Below are positions 17,651 through 55,437 of a stretch of 64,000 nt of DNA, piece by piece. The notes below the pieces were generated by a model. That model was not told the DNA's origin and searched no databases. It was given only the letters and a program-made list of their open reading frames with translations. The position numbers and the translations under genes were made by a program. Position 1 is the first letter of the stretch, and each line of letters begins with the position of its first letter. The DNA comes from an uncultured Gammaproteobacteria bacterium (lineage in GTDB: Bacteria > Patescibacteriota > Patescibacteriia > UBA9934), in the NCBI GenBank assembly GCA_964552565.1, contig CAZKGL010000001.1, positions 499,061 to 563,060 on the forward strand, in the 5' to 3' direction.

Positions 17651-17655
17651 TATTT

Positions 17656-17683
17656 GGAAGCTGAGCTTCGAAGCTCAGCTTCC
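17656..17683. repeat. REP element, 28-nt perfect palindrome GGAAGCTGAGCTTCGAAGCTCAGCTTCC (5' flank of RAYT)
   Basis: self-complementary; near-identical copies at 18442 and 49442. Confidence 0.8.
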
Positions 17684-17787
17684 AAGTTGTGGATACTTTT
17701 CTGAGATCGCTTGACGGGGGTCTTTGCATTTGAAAAACTGAAACTATCACTCCCCTCGCTCAAGGCGCGGGGCGTTTTATTTCGCGC

Positions 17788-18555: not shown

Positions 18556-18565
18556 GAGGTTCGTC

Positions 18566-19033
18566 ATGGCTGAGGAGGTGGAGAAGTCCGACATGCCCGC
18601 CCGGCAGACCAAGGCCGCGCGGGGGGTGGTGCGGCGCTACGGCGCCTCAATGGTCCGGCTCTTCGGGAACCTGTTCCCGGAGGAGAAGGACATGCTCGTC
18701 GTTCCGACGTCGCTGCCCGACCGCGGCACGCGCGCGTACGACCTCATGGAGGACCACCGCGCGCTCGGCGCCTACATCGGGGACAAGCTCCGATCGGCGC
18801 TGCACCGCGGGGCCTTCCCGCAGGACTGCACCCGGCCCATGAACGACCGGGAGCGCATCGTCCGCGGCCTCCTTCTCGCGAGCCGCGCCCACGACGTCGC
18901 GTTCTGGTCCGACGTCGCGCTCAGCAACATGCGGGCGACGGGCCGGGTCTTCCACGAGATCCAGAACGCCGCCTGCAAGGGCTGCCCGGTCCGCACCTGC
19001 GAGCACTGGCGCGCCAAGTCGCGCGCCGCCTAG
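18566..19033 (+). CDS. hypothetical protein downstream of RAYT
   Basis: strong SD (GGAGG) 7 nt upstream; 155 aa with C-terminal CKGCPVRTCEHW Cys cluster; no family recognised. Confidence 0.45.
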   Translation: MAEEVEKSDMPARQTKAARGVVRRYGASMVRLFGNLFPEEKDMLVVPTSLPDRGTRAYDLMEDHRALGAYIGDKLRSALHRGAFPQDCTRPMNDRERIVRGLLLASRAHDVAFWSDVALSNMRATGRVFHEIQNAACKGCPVRTCEHWRAKSRAA

Positions 19034-29349: not shown

Positions 29350-29745
29350 TTAATTGAGCGCGTACAATGCGCCATTCAGGTATGTGGCGAAACTCACCCA
29401 TACGAAGTACGGTGCAAGGAGCCATGCGGCAAGTTTGTCGACGCGGACAAACGCCATGATAGTGAAAAGGATGGCGAACCATAGCCCGATGATGACGACG
29501 AACGCGATGTCCGGGCGGTGCAAGCCGAAGAAAATGGGCGACCATGCAAGGTTCAGTGTGAGCTGCACCGCAAACATGCCAAGCGCATGGCTGCGTTTCG
29601 CTGTACGTTTCGCAACCCATACTCGCACCGCTGCGACCGCCATCAACGTGTAGAGCACGGCCCACACCGGGCCGAACACCTCACCCGGCGGCGTCAGCGC
29701 AGGTTTTGTCAGCGTGGCATACCACGCAAGTCCTTCCTCCGTCAT
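29350..29745 (-). CDS. tspO: TspO/MBR tryptophan-rich sensory protein
   Basis: 5-TM, Trp-rich, WxPxF-like motifs characteristic of TspO. Confidence 0.75.
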   Translation of the reverse strand: MTEEGLAWYATLTKPALTPPGEVFGPVWAVLYTLMAVAAVRVWVAKRTAKRSHALGMFAVQLTLNLAWSPIFFGLHRPDIAFVVIIGLWFAILFTIMAFVRVDKLAAWLLAPYFVWVSFATYLNGALYALN

Positions 29746-29751
29746 ATGTGA

Positions 29752-30054
29752 TTATGCAATCGCAAGTTCTAACGGCTTCACCTGTCGCTTAATCGCTTTT
29801 CCAGAGGCCTTTTGTTCTACAAGAAGATCGTACCGCGACTGTAAATTGAGCCAAAACTCTGCAGAGGTACCAAAATATTCAGACAACCGGAGCGCGGTAT
29901 CCGCAGTCACTGCACGGTCGCCATGCACGATTTCGTTAATCCTTCGGCGTGGCACGCCAATATCGTTCGCGAGTTTATATTGGGTAATTCCCATCGGCTT
30001 CAAAAACTCCTCTTCCAGAATTTCTCCCGGGTGGATAAACATTGCCTCACTCAT
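29752..30054 (-). CDS. higA: HigA-family XRE-HTH antitoxin
   Basis: HPGEILEEEFLKPMGITQYKLANDIGVPRRRINEIVHGDRAVTADTALRLSEYFGTSAEFWLNLQSRYDL is the canonical HigA signature. Confidence 0.8.
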   Translation of the reverse strand: MSEAMFIHPGEILEEEFLKPMGITQYKLANDIGVPRRRINEIVHGDRAVTADTALRLSEYFGTSAEFWLNLQSRYDLLVEQKASGKAIKRQVKPLELAIA

Positions 30055-30092
30055 ACCAATTTTTTTACTCGTCGCGAATTACTCTAATGATA

Positions 30093-30827
30093 CTACATAT
30101 CAAGCCGGGCGATTTCCTGAGTATACGCACAGAATTCACAATCTTCCGCCGCCTTCGGGATCTTCGATGAACGCAAACACGTGCGCATGGCCATGAGTGC
30201 GCCGTCGACCCACGAGTCGTCGCCTTTGTACTTCAACAACTTCACTTTGAATTCCAGCCTCCCGTCGAATGCCGCGAGATCGGTGCGACCGTTGACGTAG
30301 ACGAAGTATCCAGTGTCCGACACCCTGAATCCGTTCCTGCGGAGCAGCCACTGGTACACCTCCATCTGGCGCTTGTAGCCCATTTGCCATTCGCTATCGA
30401 GGTTTACCTCGCCGTCTTTGCTCGTCGCTTTGTAATCGACGACGATGAGCTCGCCCTTTTTGTTCACCCAGATGTCATCGACCGCGCCGGTCACGAGGAA
30501 CCCGCTCCTCGTGTGCACAAACTGCACGCCCTTAAAATTCTCCCGCCACACGTCCATGAGCTCGTGCGAAAACGGTACGGCGTTCACCTTGTACTCCGCC
30601 ATGAGCGGGTGCGCGGTCTTCGCGACGCGATGCACGTCGAACTCCTTCTTGAGGAGCGCATCAACGGCCTTGTTCAAGTTGAACGGCGGCCCACTCGGCC
30701 TCCCAATCCCCAAGCGCCTATCCAAATAAAAGCACCGCTTACAATCGATGAACAACTCAATCTTCGACCTACTCACCTTGTACGGCGTCTTCGCCTTGGG
30801 GTCGTAGAGATTCCGCGTGCGGGGCAT
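30093..30827 (-). CDS. Cas4/RecB-like PD-(D/E)XK nuclease with 4-Cys (Fe-S) cluster
   Basis: N-terminal CxxC (CKRC), motif III VVDYK, QxxxY (QMEVYQ), C-terminal CEFC; start at MPRTRNLY. Confidence 0.65.
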   Translation of the reverse strand: MPRTRNLYDPKAKTPYKVSRSKIELFIDCKRCFYLDRRLGIGRPSGPPFNLNKAVDALLKKEFDVHRVAKTAHPLMAEYKVNAVPFSHELMDVWRENFKGVQFVHTRSGFLVTGAVDDIWVNKKGELIVVDYKATSKDGEVNLDSEWQMGYKRQMEVYQWLLRRNGFRVSDTGYFVYVNGRTDLAAFDGRLEFKVKLLKYKGDDSWVDGALMAMRTCLRSSKIPKAAEDCEFCAYTQEIARLDM

Positions 30828-30899
30828 ACATTTGGTTAAGCCCAAGATGAAACTCATGCGGGCATGCTGACGAGTCTTAGACCTCCGAGGAACGTCAAA

Positions 30900-31124
30900 T
30901 TATTGATCTAATTGGATCTCCCACCTGTCCTCCTGAGAAAGTTTATATTCGTCCATGATCTCGTTGAGCTTTCGGGCGATCTCGTGACGGCGCATCAGTT
31001 TTTCTGGGTCAATATGGTTGAACACTATAGGCACACCGGGAACCATGTCACGGGCAGACATAGCTGTTTCACGTTTCAGTGTCTTCCATTCTTGGAGAAT
31101 TTGATCAAATTGCTGCTGATCCAT
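30900..31124 (-). CDS. hypothetical 74-aa protein downstream of res
   Basis: 10 nt after res stop; low-G+C codon usage like the island. Confidence 0.4.
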   Translation of the reverse strand: MDQQQFDQILQEWKTLKRETAMSARDMVPGVPIVFNHIDPEKLMRRHEIARKLNEIMDEYKLSQEDRWEIQLDQ

Positions 31125-31133
31125 ATTGGCATG

Positions 31134-33812
31134 CTAGTCATGGTTTACAAAGGCCCTAATACACTCAGCGAAAGTCTTTGGACGAAACTTTTCCCACTCC
31201 TCCTGCTTCACGTATAGCATTTTGTATTCTGTTCCCGCCTTTAGATTGTTTACATCGTCACACCACTGCCGAAGCCGTGCGATCTTCCGCGAATCGTCGA
31301 GATCCTCCCTGCCCTTCGTCTCGATAATATAGACTGTGTCATCTGCCAGCTTCACGAAAAAGTCCGGATAATAATAGGCGATGCTCCCGTCCGCATTCTT
31401 ATAATCGATACGGAATTGGACTTCGTAATAGTTTTTTGCGAATGAAACCACATCCTCACAATCATCGAGAAATTTTCCGAATTCGAGTTCAAGATGGCTA
31501 TCGCCAACAATCTTGTTGAAGACGCTCTTCTTTGGAGTGATGTATTCGTTCTTATCACTAACAAACGGCCGGGCTTGGCTGATCTTGATGTAGTTACGTA
31601 CTTCCGCCTCTCCTTTATCAATAACGGTAAGATCATTGATTGCCTTTTTGAAGGTCTCCTCAATGGTCCTACGCGCTTCAATTTCCGATAGGTTACGGAC
31701 TAGGTTAGAGTCCTCAAGATCGACCGTTTGACCAAAGAGACGGTCGCACACAAAATCTCGTACTAATGGGAACAGCTGATCAAAGCCACTGACCATGCGA
31801 AGTTCACGCATGATGCCCTGCGTGTAGAATCCGATGGCATTTCGCCAGTCGGGCATTACACCTTCTGGAAGCTCAACGATGTGATCAGTTTCCCCGGTTA
31901 CAATTTTCTTGAAGACTATTTCGCGTTGCTCTTGCGCGGTGAATTGCTTGTATTCTACCGGCCTAAACTCTAGATGAGTAACATCAATGTCAGAGATGTT
32001 TTTATATTCTCGAAAAATACGTGGAGACAGGACAGGAAGTTGAATATCGAGCTTCTCAATATCCTTCTTAAGATTTTCATGATCGATCTCAACGATGACC
32101 GGCGCAACGGCGCTTGAATCCCTGTCCATTCGCCGCGTCTGCAGTTCCACACCCTCTGCCTTAATCGACTCAACGAAATCCATGAACGCGGGGGTGCCGA
32201 TAACGCTGACGTATTCCTCAACTCCTCTACCGAAGTACATGAGCCGCAAACCGCGACCAAGCGTTTGCTCAGGAAGGATGTTGCTTTTTGACGCGAACGC
32301 GCGAAGGCCAACGATCGTGGTCACGTTTCGTACGTCCCAGCCCTCTTTCAACATGAGAACCGAAACGACAGCAAGATACGGGCTCTCAAAGCTATCTAGT
32401 TCATTCGATTCCCGACGGAGTTTATCGAGCTCCTCTTTATCCTTATGCTGAATGGTCTCCTTAATTTCGCCAGAGCGATTTGTGTGAATCGTTAATATCT
32501 TCCCTGCGAGTTCTGGGAAGTTTTGCTCGAGGTGCTGAGCGACCGCGTCACAGTTCGTGGTGTCATCAGTCATGACGAAGAGTACCGCTTTTTTTCCAGT
32601 CTTCAGGTGCTGCTCGTATGCTTTACGCCATTCGATAACACCGAGGTGGAGATATTCGCGGTAGCGCTCAATAAAGTTACTACTCTCAACCTCGTTGAGC
32701 TTCGCACGACTCGCCTGGTCCGGAAGAACCGGATGTTTTACGACGTTTTGATGGATCGCCTCAACAAGAGGATAATCGCAGACGGTTTGCACGAAGATCT
32801 CGCCACGCTCATTCTTCGGCGTTGCGGTAACGTCGATCTGCAATGACAACGCACGACCTTTCATCTTCAGGCGGTTTGAGATGTCTTCAATTGATTTAAA
32901 CCATGCGAGCTTCTCGTCGTGAATATGATGCGCCTCATCGTTGAGAACCATGAGCTCATCTACCTCACGCACAATGTCACCGAGATCAACGCCCGAGTTG
33001 GTCGTTTTCGTAACAGGACGGTCTCCCAAAAAATAATCAGTCGTGTTTTCATCCTCAAAAGTCGCCGCCTGGACGTCGCGATCGTACACACGATGAATGT
33101 TCGTCAGGAAGATATTTCCACTCGGAGAGACACCGCTCACTTCGTCCTGCAGGTGCACCGTAACCTGAAAATCATCCTGCCAGTTTTGCCCCTCGTAGCC
33201 ATTATCAGGAAGAATGGGATCGCCAAAGAAAATCTTGCATCCCTCAAAGTCTCCTTTGATGCGATCCAAAACGATGATGTTGGGTGCAATCAACAAAAAG
33301 TTCTTCGACATCAACGAATCCGGTTCGTAAATGCGATGGAAGTAACTCCATGCAATAAGCAGGCTCAACACTTTTGTCTTGCCCGCGCCCGTCGCAAGTT
33401 TCAAAACAAAACGCGGCCAGGCTTCCTTAAACATGCTTCCCGACACACGGCCCGAACTGTCGTACCGCAACAGGTCATGTGGAGCCCGTGCGCCGGCGAC
33501 TTCATAAAGGTAAATCGCTGTCTCTACAGCTTCACGCTGAGCAAAGTAATACCTGAATGTCTTTGCAACGCCATCAACCCAATCGACATGATCTTCAAGA
33601 AACCACCAACGCAGGAGCGCACGAGTCGTCGGACTCGCGCCTTTGTAATCGTTATCGCGCCACTCCTTCACCAACTTTCGCACCTCAGGCACGAGCGGCG
33701 GCATGAGTTTCTCCCACTTCGATTCTCGCAACGCCTCATCAGCCGGAAACCATCGGGTTTTCGGATCGAGGATTGCGTAGGGATCTTTTGGGAAACCAGG
33801 ATGGAGGGCCAT
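31134..33812 (-). CDS. res: type III restriction enzyme Res subunit (SF2 helicase + C-terminal PD-(D/E)XK)
   Basis: motif I LATGAGKTKV, motif II LNDEAHH, C-terminal nuclease PDFFV...YIIETKG. Confidence 0.85.
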   Translation of the reverse strand: MALHPGFPKDPYAILDPKTRWFPADEALRESKWEKLMPPLVPEVRKLVKEWRDNDYKGASPTTRALLRWWFLEDHVDWVDGVAKTFRYYFAQREAVETAIYLYEVAGARAPHDLLRYDSSGRVSGSMFKEAWPRFVLKLATGAGKTKVLSLLIAWSYFHRIYEPDSLMSKNFLLIAPNIIVLDRIKGDFEGCKIFFGDPILPDNGYEGQNWQDDFQVTVHLQDEVSGVSPSGNIFLTNIHRVYDRDVQAATFEDENTTDYFLGDRPVTKTTNSGVDLGDIVREVDELMVLNDEAHHIHDEKLAWFKSIEDISNRLKMKGRALSLQIDVTATPKNERGEIFVQTVCDYPLVEAIHQNVVKHPVLPDQASRAKLNEVESSNFIERYREYLHLGVIEWRKAYEQHLKTGKKAVLFVMTDDTTNCDAVAQHLEQNFPELAGKILTIHTNRSGEIKETIQHKDKEELDKLRRESNELDSFESPYLAVVSVLMLKEGWDVRNVTTIVGLRAFASKSNILPEQTLGRGLRLMYFGRGVEEYVSVIGTPAFMDFVESIKAEGVELQTRRMDRDSSAVAPVIVEIDHENLKKDIEKLDIQLPVLSPRIFREYKNISDIDVTHLEFRPVEYKQFTAQEQREIVFKKIVTGETDHIVELPEGVMPDWRNAIGFYTQGIMRELRMVSGFDQLFPLVRDFVCDRLFGQTVDLEDSNLVRNLSEIEARRTIEETFKKAINDLTVIDKGEAEVRNYIKISQARPFVSDKNEYITPKKSVFNKIVGDSHLELEFGKFLDDCEDVVSFAKNYYEVQFRIDYKNADGSIAYYYPDFFVKLADDTVYIIETKGREDLDDSRKIARLRQWCDDVNNLKAGTEYKMLYVKQEEWEKFRPKTFAECIRAFVNHD

Positions 33813-33814
33813 AG

Positions 33815-34108
33815 CTAGATGTCAAGTAATCTTGTCTGGAGATCATAAATTTCATCTTCCAGCTCTCTTCGTAACTCAGTTATTTCTGATGATTGATTGA
33901 TATGCGCAAACATAACGTCTATAGCAGCCAATCCGACAGTAAAGACGAATGCAACAACAACACCAATGATTATTTGCATGCTCAAATTTTTCTGATCTTT
34001 TAACTCTTCTTTTAGCGTAGCGAATTCTATGTAAAAAACCGATTCTGCTATCGCCTGGTCCAGCGGTACAAACCCCTTCAGTTCATCGTCAATAACGTGT
34101 CGTGGCAT
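33815..34108 (-). CDS. small single-TM coiled-coil protein between mod and res
   Basis: 97 aa; TM IIIGVVVAFVFTVGLAAIDVMFA; start overlaps upstream stop, stop 3 nt before res start. Confidence 0.5.
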   Translation of the reverse strand: MPRHVIDDELKGFVPLDQAIAESVFYIEFATLKEELKDQKNLSMQIIIGVVVAFVFTVGLAAIDVMFAHINQSSEITELRRELEDEIYDLQTRLLDI

Positions 34109-34109
34109 A

Positions 34110-34331
34110 TTAAATCTTCAGAAAGCCCTTAATCTCAACCACGCCACCGTGTTCTTCAGCTGCGATATCTAAGTTTTTATATCGATGAAAATCCACACCA
34201 GCGAACGCGACACCTGGACCAAACGTAAAGCCTGGACCAAATTCGATGCCGCTTACCTTGATCCTGAGTTTCGGAGTCAGGCTGCCGTCTGGCAAAATAT
34301 CAAATACCTCTCTGAAGCTGTATCTTTTCAT
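34110..34331 (-). CDS. small Gly-rich 73-aa protein between mod and res
   Basis: tightly coupled (5-nt gap after mod stop); GIEFGPGFTFGPGVAFAGVDF. Confidence 0.45.
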   Translation of the reverse strand: MKRYSFREVFDILPDGSLTPKLRIKVSGIEFGPGFTFGPGVAFAGVDFHRYKNLDIAAEEHGGVVEIKGFLKI

Positions 34332-34336
34332 AGTTC

Positions 34337-36619
34337 CTAGATCATTATCTCAACAACTCTGGTGGTATCGTTCCCAAAAATGTCGATTACTTTCACTGCG
34401 ACCTTACGCCGACCCGGCACGCACTGTACTGCAACTGATGTTAATTCAAGCTCGCGATCTTTACGAGTGCGGAAAGATTGCCATTCGTTTTCGAAAATAT
34501 ACTGGCCAGTCCATTCTTCGTCATAGTCAACCTTTGTCGCCTGCTCGAGTTCTACGGAGCCGTCAAGCATGATTTGTTTTGCCACCACGTCTTCCGCAGT
34601 GCGTACGATCTCTTTCTTGCTTTCGTAATTGAAGTCGACAGCCCAATAATCGATCCAGTCAGTCCATTTACCCGTCATTATTTCACGTGTGATAATTTCT
34701 GTTTGCTTATCTTTAGTCAACTTAATGAGATTGCCATCCTGCAAAACGATCTTCGATCCCCCACCCTTGATGTTTTCTTCGATTTCCGCGAGATCGTCTT
34801 GGTTGTAAAAAACCTTAAAATTCGCAAGCTCTATAGCGAGCTTATTCTTCTTTACAATCGGATTCACCTCAACGAACGCGAGATCGTAGAATTTCACCTG
34901 TCCGCGCTCAACGGCGCGCTTGTCGAAAACTTCGTTCGGAATCGTTTTAAACTGAAGGTCGATGCCATTGTTTTTTGCGACATCGGCATCCATGCCCATT
35001 TCCCAGCCAAAGCCGAGGACGTCCGCTTTCGTTATACCTTTTTCACGACATTCTGCGATTACCGACTCAACGAGCGAATGCGAGACTGGAAACTCGATCG
35101 GACCAATAGCAACAAGCCGATCGCGCTTCTTTCCAACAAAATTTCTGAAACCGTTTACCGGCTCAGCCTTATATGCTGAGAGAATAAGTGACCTAAAGTC
35201 ATCTTCTTTTTTACGGCGTAGCTGCTCCTTTTCTTCCGCTCGCAAGTCACCATCGACGTTTACAAATTGCTTGCGTTCGTATTTACCAAGGTTGAGAATT
35301 TCAAACGCACGATACGACTGACCCTCTTTCTTCAACTGTCGTTGCACTGCAATCATTCGCTTACGAGATGCGTGAATGCCGAAGCGTCCAAGGTCACTGC
35401 CAATCCATTTACGGTCCAACTTTTCAGAAACAGCTAAAGTCGTCCCTGAGCCGATGAAAAAATCAGCGACAATGTCTCCGTTGTTCGTTGAGGCTTGGAT
35501 AATTCGTTCAAGAAGAGCACTGGGCTTCTGAGTCGGATAGCCAGTATCTTCAACTCCGCGCACCATCGGAATGTCACTCCATAAATTTTGAACGATCATT
35601 CCCGGCCACTCATCCAAGAATTCCTTACGATAAATCAAAGAACCATTTTCTGGAAAATATAGCCTACCCTCCTCATCCCACTTACACATTTTTTCCTTAG
35701 TGACTGCCCATCCGTTTTTTGGTGGCTTCCTTCCTTTGTATTCATACCGTAGCGTCGGTCGTGGTGCCGGATTCGCCATGTTATTAATTCTGTATCGCCG
35801 ACCGCCCTCGTCAATTTTATTAAAAATATCTAACAGCTCATCGGTATTATCACTTTTGTTAAATTGTTCATTGAAAATAAACTGCTCACTTTTGGAATAG
35901 AAAAGTATGGTGTCGGTCTGAGTGCGAAAACTTCCTGCGATGCTAGTTCCACCGGTTCGTCGTTTCCAAATTATCTCCGATTGGAAATTTTCAGAACCGA
36001 ATATTTCATCAAGGATCAACCTCATGTAGGAATTCACTCGCCAATCACAGTGAACATAAATCGAGCCGTTATCGGCAAGTAAATCGTGCATGAGCCTTAA
36101 TCGCTCGTAAATCATCGAAATAAAGCTATCCGCTCCTCTTCCCCACGTATCACGATAGGCTACCTCCTCGATGATGCTCGGTTTTTTTGTAAACTCCTCC
36201 CCACCAATCTCAATGTTCATCGAAAAATCTGCACCGACATCGAATGGTGGATCGATGTAGATCAGCTTAATGCCACCTTGGGCTTCGATTTCCTTCCGCA
36301 AAGGGCCATTCTTGAGTGCAGAGAGAATCAGCTTATTGTCTCCCCAGATAAGTTTATTCGTCCAGCCCTTAGCCTGCCGACCAGAAAGATCAAAAAGATT
36401 CTGCTGCAACTTCACTTCTCGCTCACTGCGGGGCTCGTCGATATGTTCGATTGACTGAAACGGGAGCACGACGTTCATAACCTCGTCGGTCTTGCCGTTC
36501 CAAACCAACTCAACCTGGCGATTATCGCCAAACAGTAAAAACCGATATTTGTCCGGCAAGGGTTTCCCTTGCTCGAGCATCCTCGTGATATCGCGAATTT
36601 CGTTCGGTTGAAGCTGCAT
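34337..36619 (-). CDS. mod: type III R-M Mod subunit (N6-adenine DNA methyltransferase, 760 aa)
   Basis: DPPF motif IV (LIYIDPPFDVG), AdoMet motif I region, large C-terminal extension. Confidence 0.85.
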   Translation of the reverse strand: MQLQPNEIRDITRMLEQGKPLPDKYRFLLFGDNRQVELVWNGKTDEVMNVVLPFQSIEHIDEPRSEREVKLQQNLFDLSGRQAKGWTNKLIWGDNKLILSALKNGPLRKEIEAQGGIKLIYIDPPFDVGADFSMNIEIGGEEFTKKPSIIEEVAYRDTWGRGADSFISMIYERLRLMHDLLADNGSIYVHCDWRVNSYMRLILDEIFGSENFQSEIIWKRRTGGTSIAGSFRTQTDTILFYSKSEQFIFNEQFNKSDNTDELLDIFNKIDEGGRRYRINNMANPAPRPTLRYEYKGRKPPKNGWAVTKEKMCKWDEEGRLYFPENGSLIYRKEFLDEWPGMIVQNLWSDIPMVRGVEDTGYPTQKPSALLERIIQASTNNGDIVADFFIGSGTTLAVSEKLDRKWIGSDLGRFGIHASRKRMIAVQRQLKKEGQSYRAFEILNLGKYERKQFVNVDGDLRAEEKEQLRRKKEDDFRSLILSAYKAEPVNGFRNFVGKKRDRLVAIGPIEFPVSHSLVESVIAECREKGITKADVLGFGWEMGMDADVAKNNGIDLQFKTIPNEVFDKRAVERGQVKFYDLAFVEVNPIVKKNKLAIELANFKVFYNQDDLAEIEENIKGGGSKIVLQDGNLIKLTKDKQTEIITREIMTGKWTDWIDYWAVDFNYESKKEIVRTAEDVVAKQIMLDGSVELEQATKVDYDEEWTGQYIFENEWQSFRTRKDRELELTSVAVQCVPGRRKVAVKVIDIFGNDTTRVVEIMI

Positions 36620-36623
36620 ATAC

Positions 36624-37358
36624 TTATTTCAGGAGATCCCAGGCAACCAAGTAAGAGGTGACGTCGTGTTCCATATTCCCAAGGTACACCTTCCCATCGC
36701 GAATTTTAATGTTTACGCGATAGCGTGTGCCGTTGCTGACAGGAAGTATAGCGCGTTCACGCACCTTTTGCTCAATGACGTGATATGGAAGAACTACGAA
36801 CTTCGTGGCCTCTTCTCCATGCAAAACAAAGACGTAATACACGTTCCCCGAGCCGTGACGATCAAAAGAAACCTTGCGGATATCGAAGACAAAGATGTTA
36901 AACCGATTGATGTTCGACGTCTTCACCTGGATGCCGAACAGCTTGTTGTCCTTGGTCGCGATGATATCTAAGCCAGTATCGACGCTCATGATGCTGGCGT
37001 TATAGCCAAGAAACAAAAGCTCGGCACAAACCGCATGCTCACCAGCCTTACCCGTACAGCCGCTGTCGATCGCAAGTTTTTCAACAATTGCTTTCTCTGC
37101 TGGCGTTTCTGGCGTCTCTTCCACCTTTTCGACCGTCTGGTTGCCACTCAAGTCATACACGCCGGGACCAACACGCTTAAACGCTGAATGCTTTTTCTTT
37201 GCATCAGTGGAAAGCCGCGCACTCATTGTCATTTCTGGCGTCGCTCCGTTCGTCTCCAAGAGGCCCCACTCGAGCGCAAGCTCGGTAATGCGCGCATAGT
37301 GAAGTGGTTCCCCCGCGCGCTTTAGCACTTCGGCTGCTGCCTGCTTAAAGGAGTTCAT
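36624..37358 (-). CDS. HARE-HTH domain fused to PD-(D/E)XK-like nuclease domain
   Basis: N-terminal FKQAAAEVLKRAGEPLHYARITELALEWGL (HARE-HTH), C-terminal E...D(TGLDII)...IQVK; start at MNSFKQ. Confidence 0.55.
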   Translation of the reverse strand: MNSFKQAAAEVLKRAGEPLHYARITELALEWGLLETNGATPEMTMSARLSTDAKKKHSAFKRVGPGVYDLSGNQTVEKVEETPETPAEKAIVEKLAIDSGCTGKAGEHAVCAELLFLGYNASIMSVDTGLDIIATKDNKLFGIQVKTSNINRFNIFVFDIRKVSFDRHGSGNVYYVFVLHGEEATKFVVLPYHVIEQKVRERAILPVSNGTRYRVNIKIRDGKVYLGNMEHDVTSYLVAWDLLK

Positions 37359-37360
37359 AT

Positions 37361-37786
37361 CTACGAGTTGAAGGGCAAGCCCGCACCGTCCTCGAGTTTC
37401 CCATCCCACCCCTCCGCCCTCTTTTGCACGTCCGCAAAACACACTTCGTCGTGCTCACCTTCTTTTTTGTCACACTCCTTTGCATGGTCGCGTTCGGCCA
37501 AGCGTTCGGCAAGGAGCGGCCAGAATTCGTCCTCGGCAACCGCGTGGAGCGCCGCGTCTGCGTCGTCGAAGAACGCGTCGGTCCAATGGTCCTCGTCCTG
37601 CGTATCCGGGGGAAACGTCATGCCGAAGTCTTCCGCGCGATCCATGAGTTGTTCCCACAGCTCCGCAAGCTCTTCGTCGAGCTTGTCGCCGCGCAGCCGC
37701 GCGACGTGTTCGTCAAGCACGATCGCCGCCGCAACTGCGCGCGTGAGAGACAAATAGTGTTTTGTGTGTAGTGTCAAATCAGCCAT
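37361..37786 (-). CDS. highly acidic 141-aa protein (candidate DNA-mimic/regulator)
   Basis: ~27% Asp+Glu, start MADLTLHTKHY; stop abuts start of HARE-HTH nuclease gene; higher G+C than neighbours. Confidence 0.45.
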   Translation of the reverse strand: MADLTLHTKHYLSLTRAVAAAIVLDEHVARLRGDKLDEELAELWEQLMDRAEDFGMTFPPDTQDEDHWTDAFFDDADAALHAVAEDEFWPLLAERLAERDHAKECDKKEGEHDEVCFADVQKRAEGWDGKLEDGAGLPFNS

Positions 37787-37913
37787 AGAGCAGGTCGAGC
37801 GTATCCCTTTTTCCCCATCTGTACAATCCTTGACAACCCTCCCTTTTGTGCTATGCTCGGGTTGTGTCACCACGAAAAGACCCCCTGCAGGTTCCGTCCT
37901 GCCGGGGTGCTTT

Positions 37914-38399
37914 TCATTTCGAGCGGTACTGAAGCTTCTCCTTGAGCGCATCAATGCCCGCCAGGCGCGACTTCGCAGCTTTCTTGAGCAGCCCGGAGTA
38001 GCGACGGCTGTTTGGCACAAGGACGACGCGGAGCTTTTCGAGAGCATCAAGATGCCGCACAAGGCAAGAAAAATCGCCATCACCGCTTACGATAACTGCC
38101 TGGTCATATTCGCCGAGGTCGATCATTGCCTGGAGCACGAGCTCGGCATCGATATTCCCCTTCAGGCGGCCGTCGCTATCGGGAATTGTCGGCTTAAAGA
38201 CGAGGACGAAACCCGCCTCCTGGAGATGTTGGTAAAGACTGTTATTGCCCGGGACAAACCCGATGAAGTAGTACGCCTTTGTGACGCCGTAATGTTCCTT
38301 GAGGTAGATGCGAAAACGGCGATGGTTGATCTTCCAACCAAGGTCCCGCAACGCCATTGTGACGTTGTTGCCATCGATAAATGCGTAGTTGCTTGCCAT
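37914..38399 (-). CDS. NYN-domain (LabA/DUF88-like) nuclease
   Basis: AFIDGNNV...IVSGDGDF acidic residues of PIN/NYN fold. Confidence 0.7.
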   Translation of the reverse strand: MASNYAFIDGNNVTMALRDLGWKINHRRFRIYLKEHYGVTKAYYFIGFVPGNNSLYQHLQEAGFVLVFKPTIPDSDGRLKGNIDAELVLQAMIDLGEYDQAVIVSGDGDFSCLVRHLDALEKLRVVLVPNSRRYSGLLKKAAKSRLAGIDALKEKLQYRSK

Positions 38400-38406
38400 A
38401 GCATTG

Positions 38407-38430
38407 GGGTCCCTCCTGTCGTCGGGATGG
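38407..38430. repeat. family-B element, right-arm half copy
   Basis: GGGGTCCCTCCTGTCGTCGGGATGG between NYN start and MazG-like stop. Confidence 0.45.
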
Positions 38431-38432
38431 GT

Positions 38433-38783
38433 TTAGAGCTCCGTATATTTCTTGTGGTTGCCGTAGGACTTGTCGACGGGATACTTCAGTGCGGCCTTCT
38501 CGAGCTTTGCCGGCAACGCGGTCGCAAGGTCGATGTCGAGGTCATGCGCAAGGAGCAGCACCCAGTACAACACGTCCGCGAGTTCGTCCGCGACGTCTTC
38601 TTTGTGTGTCGCAAGATACTGGGCGAGTTCGTCACCATTCTTCCACTGGAAGTGCTCGAGGAACTCACTCGCCTCGAGGTTCAGCGAGATGGCGCAGTCT
38701 TTGGGGTTGTGGAACTGCTTCCAGTTGCGCGCCTCGCGGAAATCGATGAGGCGTTGCGTCAGCTCGTGGATGATGTCGCTCAT
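38433..38783 (-). CDS. MazG-like nucleotide pyrophosphohydrolase
   Basis: EASEFLEHF...ELADVLYWVLLLAHDL EExxE/ExxD motifs. Confidence 0.7.
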   Translation of the reverse strand: MSDIIHELTQRLIDFREARNWKQFHNPKDCAISLNLEASEFLEHFQWKNGDELAQYLATHKEDVADELADVLYWVLLLAHDLDIDLATALPAKLEKAALKYPVDKSYGNHKKYTEL

Positions 38784-39310
38784 AGGATGTGGAGGGCGTT
38801 CGCCTGGCGGCGGAGTACGCGGTAGTTCGGGATCGCCTTTGCGACGAGCGCCCAGAACTGCGCCGAGTGGTTGAAGGCGCCGATATGGCAGAGTTCGTGG
38901 ACGACGAGATAATCCTGCAACGGTTGGGGCAAAAAGACAATGCGGTAGTTAAAGGAGAGGTCGCCGCGGCGGTTGCAGCTTCCCCAGCGGGAGCGCTGGT
39001 TGCGGATGCCGACCTTGCCGACCCGGAAACCGTACATGGGCTGGAAATGCCCTAAACGCGCCGTCACCAGCGCCAGGGCGGCCTTTTTGTGCGCCGCGTA
39101 CTCCTCCGGGGTCCCATCGCCGGCACCGCGGCGCGGCAACGCCGCAAGCGTTGCTTGCGTCTGCGCGATCCATGGCGCCTTTTCGCACACAAACGCGTCG
39201 ATCACGCGGAGGCTTACGCGATATGGCGCAGTCACCGACACCGTCCCGTCGACGCGGACGCGAATCCGGATGCTGCGGGAACGGCGCATTTTGCGGACCG
39301 TGTATTCCAT
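38780..39310 (-). CDS. DUF45/WLM-type zinc metallohydrolase (YgjP-like, R-M associated)
   Basis: HExxH in LVVHELCHIGAFNHS; start at internal Met MEYTVRKMRRSRSIRIRV; overlaps MazG-like by 4 nt. Confidence 0.7.
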   Translation of the reverse strand: MEYTVRKMRRSRSIRIRVRVDGTVSVTAPYRVSLRVIDAFVCEKAPWIAQTQATLAALPRRGAGDGTPEEYAAHKKAALALVTARLGHFQPMYGFRVGKVGIRNQRSRWGSCNRRGDLSFNYRIVFLPQPLQDYLVVHELCHIGAFNHSAQFWALVAKAIPNYRVLRRQANALHIL

Positions 39311-39334
39311 GGGCAAAATAGTAGCACAATCCAC

Positions 39335-39362
39335 ATTGACGGATGCGCTGAGATCGGTATAC
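39335..39362 (+). promoter_or_regulatory. sigma70-like promoter TTGACG-16-TATACT
   Basis: read directly; ~50 nt upstream of small PA-rich ORF. Confidence 0.5.
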
Positions 39363-39412
39363 TTCCGGTGGTCTTTGCGAAGGCCGCCTCGTTTATTCTT
39401 AACACCATCACT

Positions 39413-39538
39413 ATGATGAACGACGGCGAGAACACCATGGCCCCGGCAATGGATCCGGGTACCCCGGCTCCGGCTCCGGCCGAACCGGAAGCTCCGGCAG
39501 AAGAAACGGCTCCCGCAGAGGAGACCCCGGCGGCGTAA
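39413..39538 (+). CDS. 41-aa Pro/Ala/Glu-rich peptide (MMNDGENTMAPAMDPGTPAPAPAEPEAPAEETAPAEETPAA)
   Basis: own promoter and intrinsic terminator; opposite strand to flanking genes. Confidence 0.4.
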   Translation: MMNDGENTMAPAMDPGTPAPAPAEPEAPAEETAPAEETPAA

Positions 39539-39556
39539 TGCCTTCGAACAAAAAAA

Positions 39557-39575
39557 CCGCGCATGCGGTTTTTTT
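39557..39575. terminator. bidirectional intrinsic terminator (CCGCGCATGCGG + T7 / A7)
   Basis: hairpin flanked by A-run and T-run between convergent ORFs. Confidence 0.7.
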
Positions 39576-39576
39576 G

Positions 39577-39828
39577 TTATCCCTTCACGAAAAATGCCGC
39601 GGCGAACGCCCCAAACACCAGGGTATAGCACACGACGAGCGCCAAGAGCCATGGCCGGACGCCGCGGCCGCCCATGCGCGCCTTGATGCCGAAAACGACG
39701 CCAGCGGCAGCAAGAAACCCTGCGCTAAGGAGAAACAGGCCTATCCAGAGCATAGCCGCCCCATTTTCCCATTCATGCACAGGAGCTGTCCAGAAAACCC
39801 TTGCAATTGCTGAGGTATTGCCGGACAA
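39577..39828 (-). CDS. small 2-TM membrane protein
   Basis: 83 aa hydrophobic. Confidence 0.4.
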   Translation of the reverse strand: MSGNTSAIARVFWTAPVHEWENGAAMLWIGLFLLSAGFLAAAGVVFGIKARMGGRGVRPWLLALVVCYTLVFGAFAAAFFVKG

Positions 39829-40973: not shown

Positions 40974-41325
40974 TCAATGCTCACTCCACAAGAGAAGAAG
41001 GCGCGACGCAAAGCCGCCCTTCTTTTCTTTTTGGGCTTGGCAGATTTCCAAAAACTCTTCGCGCGTCACGCCAAGCGCAAGCAACAGCCCGTCGATGACG
41101 GCTTCGACATCGGCAAGTTCGCGAAGCGCGTCCTCGCGGCCGTCCGCAGTGGCGGCCTCCGCGGCTTCTTCCTGCAGCTTCTGCCGGAGCTGCGCGACAA
41201 ACTGGGCGTCGTCGACAATCACGTCGGTCGCAAACGTGACGCCCTTCGCGCGCATCACCTCCGGCACCTTGTCGCGGATGAGCTTGTTATATACCACCCT
41301 TCCTGCCGGATATTGTTTGTCCATA
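40974..41325 (-). CDS. MazG/HisE-like NTP pyrophosphohydrolase
   Basis: all-alpha EAAEAA...ELADVEAVIDGL motif; start at internal Met MDKQYPAG. Confidence 0.55.
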
Positions 41326-41334
41326 CATGAGGGG

Positions 41335-41428
41335 CCGGGTGACGCCGAGCAGGTCCCCTGCTTGGGCGCGCAGACGAGTCCGACGAGTCGAGCACCCAAC
41401 AGGGTGCGAAGGCGGCAGGACCCGGCCG
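41335..41428. repeat. family-A repeat, copy A (fills cls-mazG intergenic gap)
   Basis: GCCGGGTGACGCCGAGCAGGTCCCCTGCTTGGGCGCGCAG...GAGCACCCAACAGGGTGCGAAGGCGGCAGGACCCGGCC. Confidence 0.65.
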
Positions 41429-54787: not shown

Positions 54788-54965
54788 ACGAAAATAGTGA
54801 TAATGCCATGCCGTACATGCACATGGTATAAGGAACGACCCTGCGCGTCTATTGCTCGGCCCAAGGAGGCCGCATTTTGCCCCCAACGAAAATACCGCTG
54901 CATCAGCGGTATTTTTGCGGCACGGCATCGCGAGCCAAGCGAGAACTCTTGCAACAACGGTGTGA

Positions 54966-55304: not shown

Positions 55305-55437
55305 AGCATCTCTTATTTTCCACGATGCTATCAGATCATCACGTAAAGTTCTATGCCCTCGTGGCCCAAACTAAAGATTTTATTCTTACTAGCAGAATCT
55401 TTTGTGGCGGCCTTAGTGCACGACCTGAGAACTCTTG

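What the first reader, a model, noticed from the sequence alone, without database searches (positions are those of the whole stretch)
29750..39660. ~10-kb lower-G+C defense island packing >=4 nuclease-based modules plus auxiliary NTP-pyrophosphatases
Codon and GC composition drop visibly from about 29.8 to 38.4 kb. On the minus strand the block holds a DUF45 Zn-hydrolase, a MazG-like gene, an NYN nuclease and an acidic protein. These are followed by a HARE-HTH::PD-(D/E)XK gene, Mod, two small ORFs, Res and a 74-aa ORF. Last come a Cas4-like Fe-S nuclease, HigA and TspO.

Several pieces are individually known R-M accessories: DUF45 next to R-M genes, and HARE-HTH on modification-dependent nucleases. 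The combination, with a type III system carrying extra coupled genes, an acidic protein and two MazG-like nucleotide hydrolases (38433-38783 and, outside the island, 40974-41325), is not a described system. The MazG and NYN pieces hint at nucleotide-depletion or RNA-targeting arms operating alongside DNA restriction.
Basis: partly seen in the sequence, partly recalled or inferred. Interest (0 to 1): 0.8.

Follow-up and report, generated by a model that had tools for sequence, protein, structure and literature searches.

The report
Restriction-modification island with embedded small genes
A recently imported type III restriction-modification operon sits among resident genes of a GC-rich bacterium and carries, between its two enzyme genes, a rare conserved pair of tiny genes (one soluble, one membrane-spanning) that also occurs inside other restriction systems; the wider "10-kb multi-nuclease system" is a loose neighbourhood, not one machine.

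Summary
It is narrower than stated: the foreign core is about 30.9-37.4 kb.

The core is one tightly packed minus-strand operon: acidic ORF, HARE-HTH/PD-(D/E)XK nuclease, Mod, a 73-aa ORF (s73), a 97-aa ORF (s97), Res and a 74-aa ORF (s74). The Cas4-like gene, MazG-like gene and DUF45 have host-like codon composition.

Across 92 loci with related Res genes (1.43 Mb), only Mod is consistently linked. HARE, DUF45, the acidic ORF and s74 never recur. MazG and NYN recur in one lineage each, and the Cas4-like gene in three. The single multi-arm system is therefore not supported.

Two things are worth keeping:
- **A cargo slot.** In this large, highly conserved type III family, 50 of 76 loci carry variable co-oriented genes between mod and res. 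Examples are Schlafen/AlbA_2, OLD-like ATPases, RhuM, KilA-N, Bro-N and PIN.
- **A real gene pair.** The two small ORFs form an unannotated cassette: a confidently modelled beta-rich protein plus a single-pass membrane helix. It occurs in at least 86 metagenome loci, and is embedded in or beside type I, II and III R-M operons.

I read it as a PrrC-style R-M accessory. That function is inferred, not shown.

The parts
34337..36619 (-). Mod: beta-class amino-methyltransferase subunit of a type III R-M system (760 aa). It has a DPPF motif IV upstream of the FIGSG AdoMet motif.
   Evidence: PF01555 3.2e-42. PADLOC MTase_III 3.8e-113. Best solved relative is EcoP15I Mod, 4zcf_A, 8e-16. Motifs read from the translation. 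GC3 0.50.
31134..33812 (-). Res: SF2 helicase plus C-terminal PD-(D/E)XK endonuclease subunit (892 aa).
   Evidence: ResIII 2.7e-12, with RE_endonuc and TnsA-like matches at the C-terminus below cut-off. PADLOC REase_III 1.7e-22. Walker A GAGKTK, DEAH, and D817/E831/K833 are invariant in a 21-sequence alignment. More than 8000 homologues, about 63% identical across phyla.
34110..34331 (-). s73: 73-aa soluble beta-rich protein, first gene of a conserved two-gene cassette in the mod-res slot.
33815..34108 (-). s97: 97-aa single-pass membrane helix protein, second gene of the cassette. It is the shortest member of its family.
   Evidence: One predicted TM at residues 40-71. 27 representative clusters, all 68-149 aa. 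In 64 of 69 loci the s73 gene is followed on the same strand by an ORF with exactly one TM. AF2 gives a single helix over residues 16-96. Conserved core QK.LSW.IVIGV.VAF.FT.G.
30900..31124 (-). s74: 74-aa ORF 9 nt after Res. It is an orphan within the searches run.
   Evidence: No family hit. No relative in any of about 178 fetched loci. No PDB match. GC3 0.51, like the R-M genes. It was not searched against the large protein databases.
36624..37358 (-). HARE-HTH plus PD-(D/E)XK nuclease (244 aa): a self-contained, probably modification-reading (type IV-like) nuclease, 4 nt upstream of Mod.
   Evidence: PF05066 1.1e-14, PF11645 9e-5. 364 homologues of uniform length near 245 aa, named by sources as CPR bacteria. 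Contexts vary: type I R-M, another defence island, housekeeping. Absent from 92 related R-M loci.
37361..37786 (-). Acidic 141-aa ORF (pI 4.36; 37 D+E against 14 K+R). Its stop lies 2 nt before the HARE start. Function unknown.
   Evidence: Reading of the sequence. pI. No hit in Pfam, PADLOC, PHROGs, PDB, plasmids or any fetched locus.
30093..30857 (-). Solo Cas4-like PDDEXK_1 nuclease with conserved CxxC...CxxC cysteines. Resident (host-like composition) flank gene.
   Evidence: PF12705 1.6e-13. cas4 TIGR00372 scores 30.9 bits against a cut-off of 65. GC3 0.79. Next to related R-M loci in L086/87, L089 and L017, the last frameshifted.
29752..30054 (-). Orphan HigA antitoxin-type HTH protein with no HigB partner. 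Low GC3.
   Evidence: TIGR02607 8.7e-34. 38-nt and 6-nt spacers to its neighbours leave no room for higB. GC3 0.50. L086 has HigB-HigA.
29350..29745 (-). TspO/MBR membrane protein: flank gene, not defence. Its N-terminus is short (the profile match starts at position 22 of 145).
   Evidence: PF03073 3.3e-46. TspO also lies at the edge of R-M or defence blocks in L086, L178 and L024.
37914..38399 (-). NYN/LabA-like domain protein, separated from the operon by a 127-nt spacer.
   Evidence: PF01936 1.3e-15. PADLOC NYN accessory model 1.7e-9. GC3 0.67. Near a related R-M only in L070.
38433..38783 (-). MazG-like all-alpha NTP pyrophosphohydrolase: resident composition, overlaps the DUF45 stop (ATGA).
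   Evidence: PF12643 5.7e-19. GC3 0.81. A 55%-identical copy sits directly upstream of Mod in L086/L087.
38780..39310 (-). YgjP-like/DUF45 HExxH metallohydrolase, resident composition.
   Evidence: PF01863 1.3e-40. HELCH motif. GC3 0.81. No PADLOC hit. Absent from the 92 related R-M loci.
40974..41399 (-). PRA-PH-like (MazG superfamily) gene outside the island. The family match is marginal.
   Evidence: PF01503 2.7e-4, 21.7 bits against a cut-off of 21.3. GC3 0.72. No relatives in related loci.

Best explanation
The low-G+C block is a recently acquired type III restriction-modification operon on the minus strand, about 30.9-37.8 kb: acidic ORF, HARE-HTH/PD-(D/E)XK nuclease, Mod, s73, s97, Res, s74. 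It lies in a variable locus bounded by resident genes, with DUF45-MazG-NYN on one side and Cas4-like nuclease/TspO on the other.

**Inferred from family knowledge.** Mod, an N6-adenine-type beta-class methyltransferase with a DPPF motif, marks one strand of a short asymmetric site. A Mod2Res1 complex uses ATP to slide along DNA and cuts unmodified DNA with the C-terminal PD-(D/E)XK domain of Res.

**Shown.** In this very large, highly conserved and widely transferred R-M family, the mod-res junction is a cargo slot. Two thirds of relatives hold unrelated co-oriented accessory genes there. Here the slot holds a conserved pair: a 73-aa beta-rich soluble protein and a single-pass membrane helix protein. 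The pair travels as a unit. It is also found between hsdS and hsdR of type I systems, upstream of other type III mod-res pairs, and beside type II/IIG enzymes.

**Inferred.** The pair is an R-M-linked accessory of the PrrC kind, a second-line module. The membrane helix protein would be the effector, causing membrane damage or growth arrest. The small soluble protein would be its sensor or restraint, triggered when restriction fails or is inhibited. The HARE-HTH nuclease is a separate modification-reading nuclease that covers phages whose modified DNA escapes the type III enzyme.

MazG, DUF45, NYN, Cas4-like and TspO are neighbours, not subunits.
For: **Recent import**
- G+C 0.485 against 0.631, tetranucleotide distance 0.5-0.64 against 0.227, and the per-gene GC3 split.
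- R-M genes of this family normally track host G+C (r = 0.83, n = 54). Here they sit 0.14 lower.

**Type III identity and intact motifs:**

**Operon packing:** 1-9 nt spacers.

**Cargo slot**
- 50 of 76 loci have at least 300 nt between mod and res (median 1366 nt). The distribution is bimodal, and the slot is used in either gene order.
- The gaps are filled by co-oriented ORFs of many unrelated families. These include Schlafen AlbA_2+HATPase_c_4, Bro-N, KilA-N, RhuM, HATPase-DUF4325-PIN, DUF3800, OLD-like AAA_21+TOPRIM, AAA_15 and M78+HTH.

**The cassette is real and mobile**
- Family conservation and pairing.
- The same Mod-s73-s97-Res layout occurs in L093, at Res 76%, s73 77% and s97 50% identity.
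- Other placements: type I hsdS-[cassette]-hsdR (L094-L096); upstream of another type III system (L091, L121, L138-141); next to a D12 methylase, a 1337-aa ResIII-Eco57I enzyme, AlwI, and DndB/Abi_2.
- It is absent from 2.9 M viral contigs and from the phage collection.

**Analogous cargo in the closest relatives.** The two closest Res relatives with a mod-res slot on the contig carry sequence-unrelated 'small soluble + small membrane' pairs in the same slot (L088, L089).

**Precedent for the logic.** PrrC and toxins embedded in R-M operons (PMC12707154, sections 72-73; PMC3710099).

**Flank genes unlinked elsewhere:**
Against: - No effector domain, toxicity or trigger has been shown for s73/s97. 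The fold of s73 matches nothing known.
- Many cassette copies sit between housekeeping genes with no R-M in view. Only 7 of 46 contigs of at least 3 kb hit my limited R-M seed set. About 15-20 of 118 neighbours carry R-M Pfam domains; that range is my estimate from overlapping family counts.
- The window's s97 is the shortest family member and lacks most of the C-terminal coiled coil. It could be decaying.
- MazG and the Cas4-like gene flank the R-M in a second, diverged lineage (L086: MazG 55%, Cas4-like 56%, TspO 52%, HigA 58%). A functional tie for those two is therefore not excluded.
- Res has no detectable sequence similarity to EcoP15I Res, even with a profile. The type III mechanism is inferred from architecture and from Mod.
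Confidence: 0.6

Rival explanations
1. The whole 29.8-39.7 kb block is one undescribed multi-arm defence system, in which DNA restriction (Res, HARE nuclease, Cas4-like), RNA targeting (NYN) and nucleotide depletion (MazG-like, DUF45) act together.
For: - All genes are co-oriented and closely spaced.
- MazG-Mod...Res...Cas4-like-TspO is repeated in L086/L087.
- A Cas4-like gene abuts related R-M loci in L089 and L017.
- An NYN gene lies upstream of Mod in L070.
Against: - Over 92 related loci (1.43 Mb), HARE, DUF45, the acidic ORF, s74 and the second MazG are never found. MazG and NYN each occur in a single lineage.
- MazG, DUF45 and Cas4-like have host-like GC3 (0.79-0.81), while the R-M core has 0.38-0.59. 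They were not acquired together.
- A 127-nt spacer separates NYN from the operon.
- No PADLOC system model matches MazG or DUF45.
- L086 also shares MsrB further along, so the resemblance looks like conserved chromosomal neighbourhood rather than a mobile unit.
Confidence: 0.08
2. s73-s97 is a selfish addiction (toxin-antitoxin-like) cassette, or a device that times or limits Res expression. It hitch-hikes in R-M operons without adding an anti-phage layer.
For: - It is a two-gene, tightly coupled, mobile unit found in many genomic contexts, including between housekeeping genes.
- It sits exactly between Mod and Res, where delayed Res translation is known to matter for type III establishment (PMC12707154, section 58).
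- Small membrane peptides are common toxins (my own knowledge).
Against: - Its neighbours are clearly enriched for R-M enzymes of several types.
- It is embedded inside type I and type III operons at different positions, including upstream of mod, where it could not delay res.
- s73 has no DNA- or RNA-binding signature and no HTH.
Confidence: 0.2
3. s73-s97 tethers or localises the R-M complex at the membrane, the site of DNA entry. The cassette would be a structural adaptor rather than a toxin.
For: - s97 is a single long helix with a central TM segment and flanking amphipathic/coiled-coil parts.
- The cassette is found with several helicase-type R-M enzymes.
Against: - There is no evidence of contact with Mod or Res.
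- The cassette also occurs without any R-M gene nearby.
- The partner R-M enzymes are unrelated to each other, which argues against a specific docking surface.
Confidence: 0.05
4. The two small ORFs between mod and res are chance ORFs in a degenerate spacer.
For: They are absent from nearly all related type III loci.
Against: - Both belong to conserved protein families: s73 in 86 loci at 43-77% identity, s97 in 27 representative clusters.
- The pair is syntenic in 64 of 69 loci.
- The s73 model is confident, pLDDT 92.6.
Confidence: 0.02

Closest known systems
Type III restriction-modification systems (EcoP15I/EcoP1I type)
   Same: - Beta-class Mod (DPPF then FxGxG). The best solved relative is EcoP15I Mod.
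- Res has SF2 helicase motifs and a C-terminal PD-(D/E)XK motif.
- mod and res are co-oriented in one operon.
   Different: - Res shows no detectable sequence similarity to EcoP15I Res, even with a family profile. It only partly matches NCBIfam BPTD_3080 (272 bits against a cut-off of 800).
- Mod is long (760 aa).
- mod and res are separated by two genes, and in two thirds of the family by other cargo.
PrrC/EcoprrI and other toxin genes embedded in R-M operons (RloC, RhuM, Doc/Fic, AbiJ; Makarova 2012, Anantharaman 2013 PMC3710099; review PMC12707154)
   Same: - An accessory unit sits inside an R-M operon.
- The same unit recurs inside R-M operons of different types.
- Slot cargo in relatives includes the very families listed in that literature, such as RhuM, Schlafen and OLD/ABC-type ATPases.
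   Different: - s73/s97 have no ABC ATPase, HEPN or any known toxin domain. They are two tiny proteins, one membrane-spanning.
- The published cases are mostly type I. I found no description of a systematic mod-res slot in type III systems in two literature searches.
- Activation by failure of restriction is untested.
Type III systems with a conserved third gene (m4C subgroup with an ATPase 5' of mod; Murray et al. 2021, PMC8259958)
   Same: It is a precedent that type III loci can carry additional conserved genes of unknown role.
   Different: That third gene is a helicase/ATPase upstream of mod and is conserved across hundreds of systems. Here the extras are variable, and in this window they are tiny non-enzymatic proteins between mod and res.
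HARE-HTH-nuclease fusions / modification-dependent (type IV) restriction enzymes (Aravind & Iyer 2012, as cited in PMC11037411)
   Same: An N-terminal HARE-HTH predicted DNA-modification reader is fused to a PD-(D/E)XK nuclease. It is encoded beside R-M genes.
   Different: No biochemical data exist for this 245-aa family. It also occurs in non-defence contexts, next to an MGMT-like gene. JGI labels some members 'Holliday junction resolvase'.
Solo Cas4 / PDDEXK_1 nucleases of small-genome bacteria (Hudaiberdiev et al. 2017, PMC5704561)
   Same: It is a Cas4-like PD-(D/E)XK nuclease with a cysteine cluster, not next to cas genes. That paper reports solo-Cas4 as over-represented in CPR genomes, mostly vertically inherited and occasionally beside R-M genes. 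This fits the host-like GC3 here.
   Different: It scores below the cas4 equivalog cut-off. The cysteine pattern is CxxC...CxxC rather than what I recall as the canonical Cas4 spacing.

Membership tests
Type III restriction-modification system | Mod is a beta-class N6/N4 amino-methyltransferase (motif IV before motif I), related to known type III Mods | tested here: met
   PF01555 3.2e-42. PADLOC MTase_III 3.8e-113. EcoP15I Mod, H. pylori Mod and Mbo45V are among the top four PDB hits, MboIIA being second. DPPF lies upstream of FIGSG in the translation.
Type III restriction-modification system | Res carries SF2 helicase/ATPase motifs | tested here: met
   PF04851 2.7e-12. GAGKTK and DEAH are invariant in the 21-sequence alignment.
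Type III restriction-modification system | Res carries a PD-(D/E)XK endonuclease domain | tested here: met
   D817...E831-x-K833 is invariant. The RE_endonuc and TnsA-like Pfam matches are sub-threshold, so this rests on motif plus weak profile evidence.
Type III restriction-modification system | Res is homologous to characterised type III Res subunits (EcoP1I/EcoP15I) | tested here: inconclusive
   No PDB sequence hit with the protein or the family profile at E up to 1. Partial PADLOC REase_III match, 1.7e-22. NCBIfam type III endonuclease PRK15483 scores only 22 bits.
Type III restriction-modification system | mod and res adjacent and co-transcribed | tested here: met
   Same strand and linked in 76 of the 80 genome loci, counting co-oriented matches. 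Here they are separated by two tightly coupled ORFs. Transcription itself was not tested.
Type III restriction-modification system | ATP-dependent cleavage that needs two inversely oriented unmethylated sites; hemimethylation by Mod | not testable with these tools
   Needs a methylome and biochemistry.
PrrC-type R-M-embedded second-line (guardian / abortive infection) module | Gene(s) embedded within an R-M operon, recurring across R-M systems | tested here: met
   Found between mod and res (window, L093), between hsdS and hsdR (L094-L096), and upstream of another type III mod (L091, L121, L138-141).
PrrC-type R-M-embedded second-line (guardian / abortive infection) module | A recognisable toxin or effector domain (ABC ATPase + HEPN anticodon nuclease in PrrC/RloC) | tested here: not met
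   No Pfam, NCBIfam, PADLOC or PHROG hit for s73 or s97. s97 is a single TM helix. s73 has a fold without a match. It is not a PrrC family member; only the logic may be shared.
PrrC-type R-M-embedded second-line (guardian / abortive infection) module | Kept silent by the R-M enzyme and activated when restriction is inhibited | not testable with these tools
   Needs genetics and phage assays.
Modification-dependent (type IV-like) HARE-HTH nuclease | HARE-HTH reader domain fused to a nuclease domain | tested here: met
   PF05066 1.1e-14 at residues 31-98 of the 272-aa ORF. PDDEXK_5 9e-5, 23 bits against a cut-off of 26.1. Some homologues carry PF11645 in precomputed annotation.
Modification-dependent (type IV-like) HARE-HTH nuclease | Cleaves modified but not unmodified DNA | not testable with these tools
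   No experimental data. The literature gives only a prediction (PMC11037411, citing Aravind & Iyer 2012).
CRISPR-associated Cas4 | Reaches the cas4 family score and lies in a cas1/cas2 adaptation module | tested here: not met
   TIGR00372 scores 30.9 bits against a cut-off of 65. PF01930 scores 17.4 against 22.7. None of the annotated minus-strand genes from 29.3 to 39.7 kb is a cas gene. It is therefore filed as a solo PDDEXK_1 nuclease.
HigBA toxin-antitoxin pair | HigA antitoxin with an adjacent HigB toxin | tested here: not met
   The HigA equivalog is met (115 bits). The flanking spacers are 38 and 6 nt with no higB ORF. The L086 relative does have HigB-HigA.
Any catalogued defence system using MazG, NYN or DUF45 (PADLOC-DB 2.0) | Protein matches a system-specific model | tested here: not met
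   MazG and DUF45: no meaningful hit. NYN: only a generic CRISPR-accessory NYN model at 1.7e-9 and HEC-09 at 8e-7.

The most novel reading that the evidence does not exclude
The s73-s97 pair (a small beta-fold protein without structural relatives, plus a single-pass membrane helix) is a new, portable R-M 'guardian' or abortive-infection module that plugs into type I, II and III restriction operons. The mod-res junction of this very widespread type III family would then be a dedicated docking slot for exchangeable second-line effectors. The two closest relatives with a slot on the contig carry sequence-unrelated 'soluble + membrane' pairs in the same slot, which hints at a recurring functional design.
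Probability: 0.3. Interest if true: 0.65.

Novelty: new variant of a known kind. Interest (0 to 1): 0.45.

Why it matters
**The island as a whole is ordinary.** It is an imported R-M operon in a variable locus, surrounded by resident nucleases and nucleotide hydrolases.

**Two points could matter.**
- One of the most widespread and conserved type III R-M families, with more than 8000 homologues across many phyla, uses the mod-res junction as an exchange point for accessory genes in about two thirds of the loci sampled. This extends the 'toxin embedded in an R-M operon' idea, documented mainly for type I systems, to type III. It also gives a simple anchor for mining new defence accessories.
- The pair found here is a conserved, completely unannotated cassette that associates with R-M systems of several types. 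It is small enough to test directly by toxicity assays, phage assays, and dependence on restriction being inhibited.

Tried and rejected
**Searches for mobility and transcription signals**
- Looked for att-like direct repeats, integrase or transposase at the island edges. Only short chance repeats turned up.
- The promoter and terminator scans were not informative.

**Function searches for s73, s97, s74 and the acidic ORF**
- Pfam, NCBIfam, PADLOC and PHROGs gave nothing.
- PDB sequence searches gave nothing significant for the acidic ORF or s74.
- tblastn gave nothing for the acidic ORF against plasmids or for s73 against phages.

**Structure of s73**
- The AFDB library was unavailable.

**Ideas considered and set aside**
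- I considered that the acidic ORF is a DNA-mimic immunity partner of the HARE nuclease. No acidic gene precedes HARE homologues in L174-L178, so I dropped it to speculation.
- I considered that MazG and Cas4-like are part of the mobile unit because L086 repeats the order. Host-like GC3 here and extended synteny with MsrB point to a shared chromosomal neighbourhood instead.
- I considered a phage origin for the cassette. There is no relative in 2.9 M viral contigs.

**Not done**
- Taxonomy of the source was not established. Only names attached to homologues point to Patescibacteria/CPR.

Full report

Yes. Sliding-window G+C falls from about 0.63 to 0.45-0.51 between roughly 30.0 and 37.5 kb. 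With 1-kb windows, the inside averages 0.485 and the rest of the window 0.631 +/- 0.038. Tetranucleotide distance to the window background is 0.52-0.64 for 2-kb windows starting between 30.0 and 35.5 kb, against a background of 0.227 +/- 0.048.

The minus strand carries an uninterrupted chain of ORFs.
- TspO
- HigA (equivalog score met)
- a PDDEXK_1/Cas4-like nuclease
- a 74-aa ORF (s74)
- Res (ResIII helicase plus C-terminal endonuclease signals)
- a 97-aa ORF (s97) and a 73-aa ORF (s73)
- Mod (N6_N4_Mtase; PADLOC MTase_III 3.8e-113)
- a HARE-HTH protein with a weak PDDEXK_5 match
- an acidic ORF
- NYN, MazG-like and YgjP/DUF45

The 'second MazG' at 40974-41399 is only a marginal PRA-PH match.

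**2. Refining the anatomy.**

Reading the sequence places the HARE start at ATG 37358 (244 aa) and the acidic ORF start at ATG 37786 (141 aa; pI 4.36). Spacers in the chain acidic-HARE-Mod-s73-s97-Res-s74 are 1-9 nt, so this is one operon-like unit. NYN is set apart by 127 nt.

Per-gene third-position G+C splits the block:

| Class | Genes (GC3) |
|---|---|
| Host genes | MsrB-like ORF .83, FG-GAP .94, SPFH .87, PLD .85 |
| Island genes, low | s74 .51, Res .55, s97 .38, s73 .46, Mod .50, HARE .59, HigA .50 |
| Island genes, host-like | Cas4-like .79, MazG .81, DUF45 .81 |
| Intermediate | NYN .67, acidic ORF .71, TspO .70 |

The compositionally foreign core is therefore about 30.9-37.4 kb, plus HigA as a separate small piece. 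No integrase, transposase or flanking direct repeats were found.

**3. The R-M system and its family.**

Mod has DPPF upstream of FIGSG, the beta-class order. Its best solved relative is EcoP15I Mod, and other type III Mods are among the top hits.

Res has the Walker A and DEAH motifs and an invariant D...E-x-K at the C-terminus. It shows no detectable sequence similarity to any solved chain, EcoP15I Res included, even with a family profile. It only partly matches PADLOC REase_III and NCBIfam BPTD_3080. By architecture it is a type III system, from a Res clade distant from the textbook enzymes.

The family is very large. More than 8000 homologues were scored, most about 63% identical over the full length, from Patescibacteria, Nitrospirae, Omnitrophica and others. 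A scan of species-representative genomes returned 80 loci from many phyla. In those loci the G+C of Res and Mod tracks the host (r = 0.83, n = 54). The 0.14 deficit in this window therefore argues for a recent arrival.

**4. Test of the 'one system' idea.**

tblastn and then phmmer with all island proteins over the 92 related loci (1.43 Mb) gave the following:

| Component | Result |
|---|---|
| Mod | adjacent and co-oriented in 76 of the 80 genome loci |
| HARE, DUF45, acidic ORF, s74, second MazG | never found |
| MazG | one lineage (L086/L087) |
| NYN | one locus (L070) |
| Cas4-like | three lineages (L086/87, L089, and a frameshifted copy in L017) |

PADLOC models call nothing but the R-M pair.

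The one striking parallel is L086. There the order is MazG-Mod-X-Res-Y-Z-Cas4-like-TspO...HigB-HigA...MsrB, with 52-58% identity in the flank genes. The shared stretch extends to housekeeping genes, and the flank genes here have host-like composition. I read this as a conserved chromosomal neighbourhood that repeatedly hosts defence cargo, not as a mobile multi-gene system.

The HARE nuclease belongs to a uniform 245-aa family with 364 hits, named by their sources as CPR bacteria. Its contexts differ: directly after a type I hsdR (L178), inside another defence island with GmrSD and a Shedu-like gene (L174), and next to an MGMT-like gene among ordinary genes (L175-177). It is an independent module. 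The literature predicts HARE-HTH to read DNA modifications (PMC11037411, citing Aravind & Iyer 2012).

The Cas4-like gene fits the 'solo Cas4/PDDEXK_1' class. That class is reported as over-represented in small-genome bacteria, mostly vertically inherited and sometimes next to R-M genes (PMC5704561).

**5. An unexpected general feature: a cargo slot between mod and res.**

In 76 genome loci with both genes, the distance between them is bimodal. It is at most 150 nt in 26 loci and at least 300 nt in 50 loci (median 1366 nt), whichever gene comes first.

The gaps are filled by co-oriented ORFs that fall into many unrelated clusters. Pfam identifies the following:
- Schlafen AlbA_2 + HATPase_c_4 (the largest cluster, 9 loci)
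- Bro-N, KilA-N and RhuM
- a three-gene set of an HATPase-like ORF (sub-threshold HATPase_c match), DUF4325 and PIN
- DUF3800 and a ParA-like ATPase
- OLD-like AAA_21 (with a weak TOPRIM match) and AAA_15
- an M78 peptidase with a weak HTH match

Of the four close Res relatives (76-85% identity) whose contig includes the slot, all carry cargo, each time different:
- L084/85: 67 + 200 aa
- L086: 251 aa
- L088: a 63-aa CxxC...CxxC protein (Zn-ribbon-like, by eye) plus an 86-aa hydrophobic protein (about two TM segments, by eye)
- L089: DUF6864 plus a 156-aa hydrophobic, apparently multi-TM protein

A fifth close relative, L082/83 (82%), has no Mod at all.

This matches the established idea of toxins and effectors embedded in R-M operons (PrrC in a type Ic locus; RhuM, Doc and HEPN families; PMC3710099; PMC12707154 sections 72-73, citing Makarova 2012). 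Two literature searches did not turn up a description of a systematic mod-res slot in type III systems. One paper notes Schlafen-like ATPases in type III loci (PMC5704561), and another a conserved extra ATPase 5' of mod (PMC8259958).

**6. The two small ORFs are a real, conserved cassette.**

- s73 has 9 database homologues at 51-77% identity. A pattern scan of metagenome contigs found 86 loci.
- In 64 of 69 analysable loci, the s73 gene is followed on the same strand by an ORF with exactly one predicted transmembrane segment (mostly about 95-160 aa; a few shorter at contig ends). In most of these, that ORF is detectably related to s97.
- An exhaustive search finds 27 representative s97-like clusters, all 68-149 aa. 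They share the core QK.LSW.IVIGV.VAF.FT.G.
- s97 is modelled as one long helix.
- Neither protein hits any Pfam, NCBIfam, PADLOC or PHROG model.

A second locus, L093, has exactly the same Mod-s73-s97-Res layout. Identity there is Res 76%, s73 77% and s97 50%, so the arrangement has persisted through substantial divergence.

Elsewhere the cassette sits:
- between hsdS and hsdR of a type I system (L094-L096)
- upstream of a different type III mod-res pair, after RadC (L091, L121, L138-141)
- next to a D12 methylase (L099-102)
- before a 1337-aa enzyme with ResIII and Eco57I domains and a weak T5orf172 match (L129)
- near AlwI (L111) and a Schlafen-type helicase (L135)
- between DndB and Abi_2 (L090)

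. The most frequent Pfam families among 118 neighbouring proteins are R-M components (Methylase_S 5, ResIII 4, Eco57I 4, N6_Mtase 3, N6_N4_Mtase 3, D12 3) and RadC (4).

Many copies, however, lie between housekeeping genes such as ArgG, FtsH, ATP synthase epsilon and DprA. No copy was found in 2.9 million viral contigs or in the phage collection.

**7. How it most likely works.**

*Shown:* an intact, recently imported type III R-M operon; a slot that exchanges cargo; a conserved soluble + membrane pair that associates with R-M systems of several types.

*Inferred from family knowledge:* Mod2Res1, hemimethylation of an asymmetric site, ATP-triggered sliding, and cleavage of unmodified DNA.

*Inferred by analogy:* s73-s97 is a second-line module. 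The membrane helix would be the effector and s73 its sensor or restraint, in the logic of PrrC. The HARE nuclease would independently attack modified DNA that escapes the type III enzyme.

*Weak points:*
- No effector chemistry is evident.
- Many cassette copies have no R-M in view.
- This window's s97 is the shortest in its family.

**8. Verdict.**

The gene calls and the island are confirmed. The proposed multi-arm system is not. What remains is a type III R-M operon of a known kind with an unusual, uncharacterised embedded two-gene cassette, and a family-wide cargo slot that deserves a systematic census. I rate it a new variant of a known kind, of moderate interest.

Noticed in passing
window 17250-18750: A second low-G+C patch (1-kb windows at or below about 0.52). 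It contains ORF 17788-18555 (+), whose sequence (…MPNHFHFLIEQ…, …YIHLNP…) looks like an IS200/IS605-type Y1 (REP-associated) transposase. This is read by eye and was not run against Pfam.
   Followed up: no
window 54500-56300, beside tRNA-Trp at 56296-56370: A third low-G+C patch directly next to tRNA-Trp. It holds a GIY-YIG-like ORF (55842-56279, '…YVLYSKQDGKLYIGYS…'), a glyoxalase/VOC-like ORF (55438-55845) and small ORFs. It is possibly a small tRNA-associated islet. The identities were judged by eye only.
   Followed up: no
window 29350-29745; L086 14642-15118; L178 14649-14738; L024 5784-6185 and 8370-8771: TspO lies at the edge of R-M or defence blocks in four independent contigs. It may mark a conserved defence hotspot in these small-genome bacteria. 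The window's TspO is short (131 aa; the profile match starts at position 22 of 145) and begins 6 nt after the low-GC3 HigA gene, so its 5' end may have been clipped by that insertion.
   Followed up: partly
L088 2330-2784; L089 1002-1837: The two closest Res relatives with a mod-res slot on the contig (85% and 83% identity) also carry a 'small soluble + small membrane' gene pair in that slot, with no sequence similarity to s73/s97. L088 has a 63-aa CxxC...CxxC protein plus an 86-aa hydrophobic protein. L089 has DUF6864 (122 aa) plus a 156-aa hydrophobic protein. The TM counts were judged by eye. This looks like an analogous design reached with different proteins.
   Followed up: partly
L016 8226-9993; L043 88-1865; L056 7245-9013: A recurring three-gene cargo in the mod-res slot, seen in three unrelated hosts: an HATPase_c-like protein (sub-threshold match), DUF4325 (STAS-like) and PIN. 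It looks like a partner-switching-type sensor coupled to an RNase.
   Followed up: no
L082 10001-12568 / L083: A Res homologue (82% identical) lacks the first ~30 residues and has no Mod anywhere on the 13-15 kb contig. A glyoxalase gene sits upstream. It is an orphan or decaying Res.
   Followed up: partly
L017 3344-4095: A Cas4-like gene lies divergently next to Mod but is split into two ORFs (117 + 148 aa). This is either a frameshifted pseudogene or an assembly error.
   Followed up: partly
window 39547-39578: A perfect 14-nt inverted repeat with a 4-nt loop (AACAAAAAAACCGC/GCGGTTTTTTTGTT). It looks like a bidirectional terminator and lies upstream of the DUF45 gene.
   Followed up: no
L002-L081 (Res family): Res proteins of this family stay about 60% identical over their full length across very distant phyla, while their G+C tracks the host (r = 0.83). 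This implies strong purifying selection together with frequent transfer followed by amelioration.
   Followed up: partly
L091 6549-7193; L121, L128, L138-141, L146, L178 52-708: A RadC-like JAB gene repeatedly sits immediately upstream of the s73-s97 cassette or of R-M operons.
   Followed up: no
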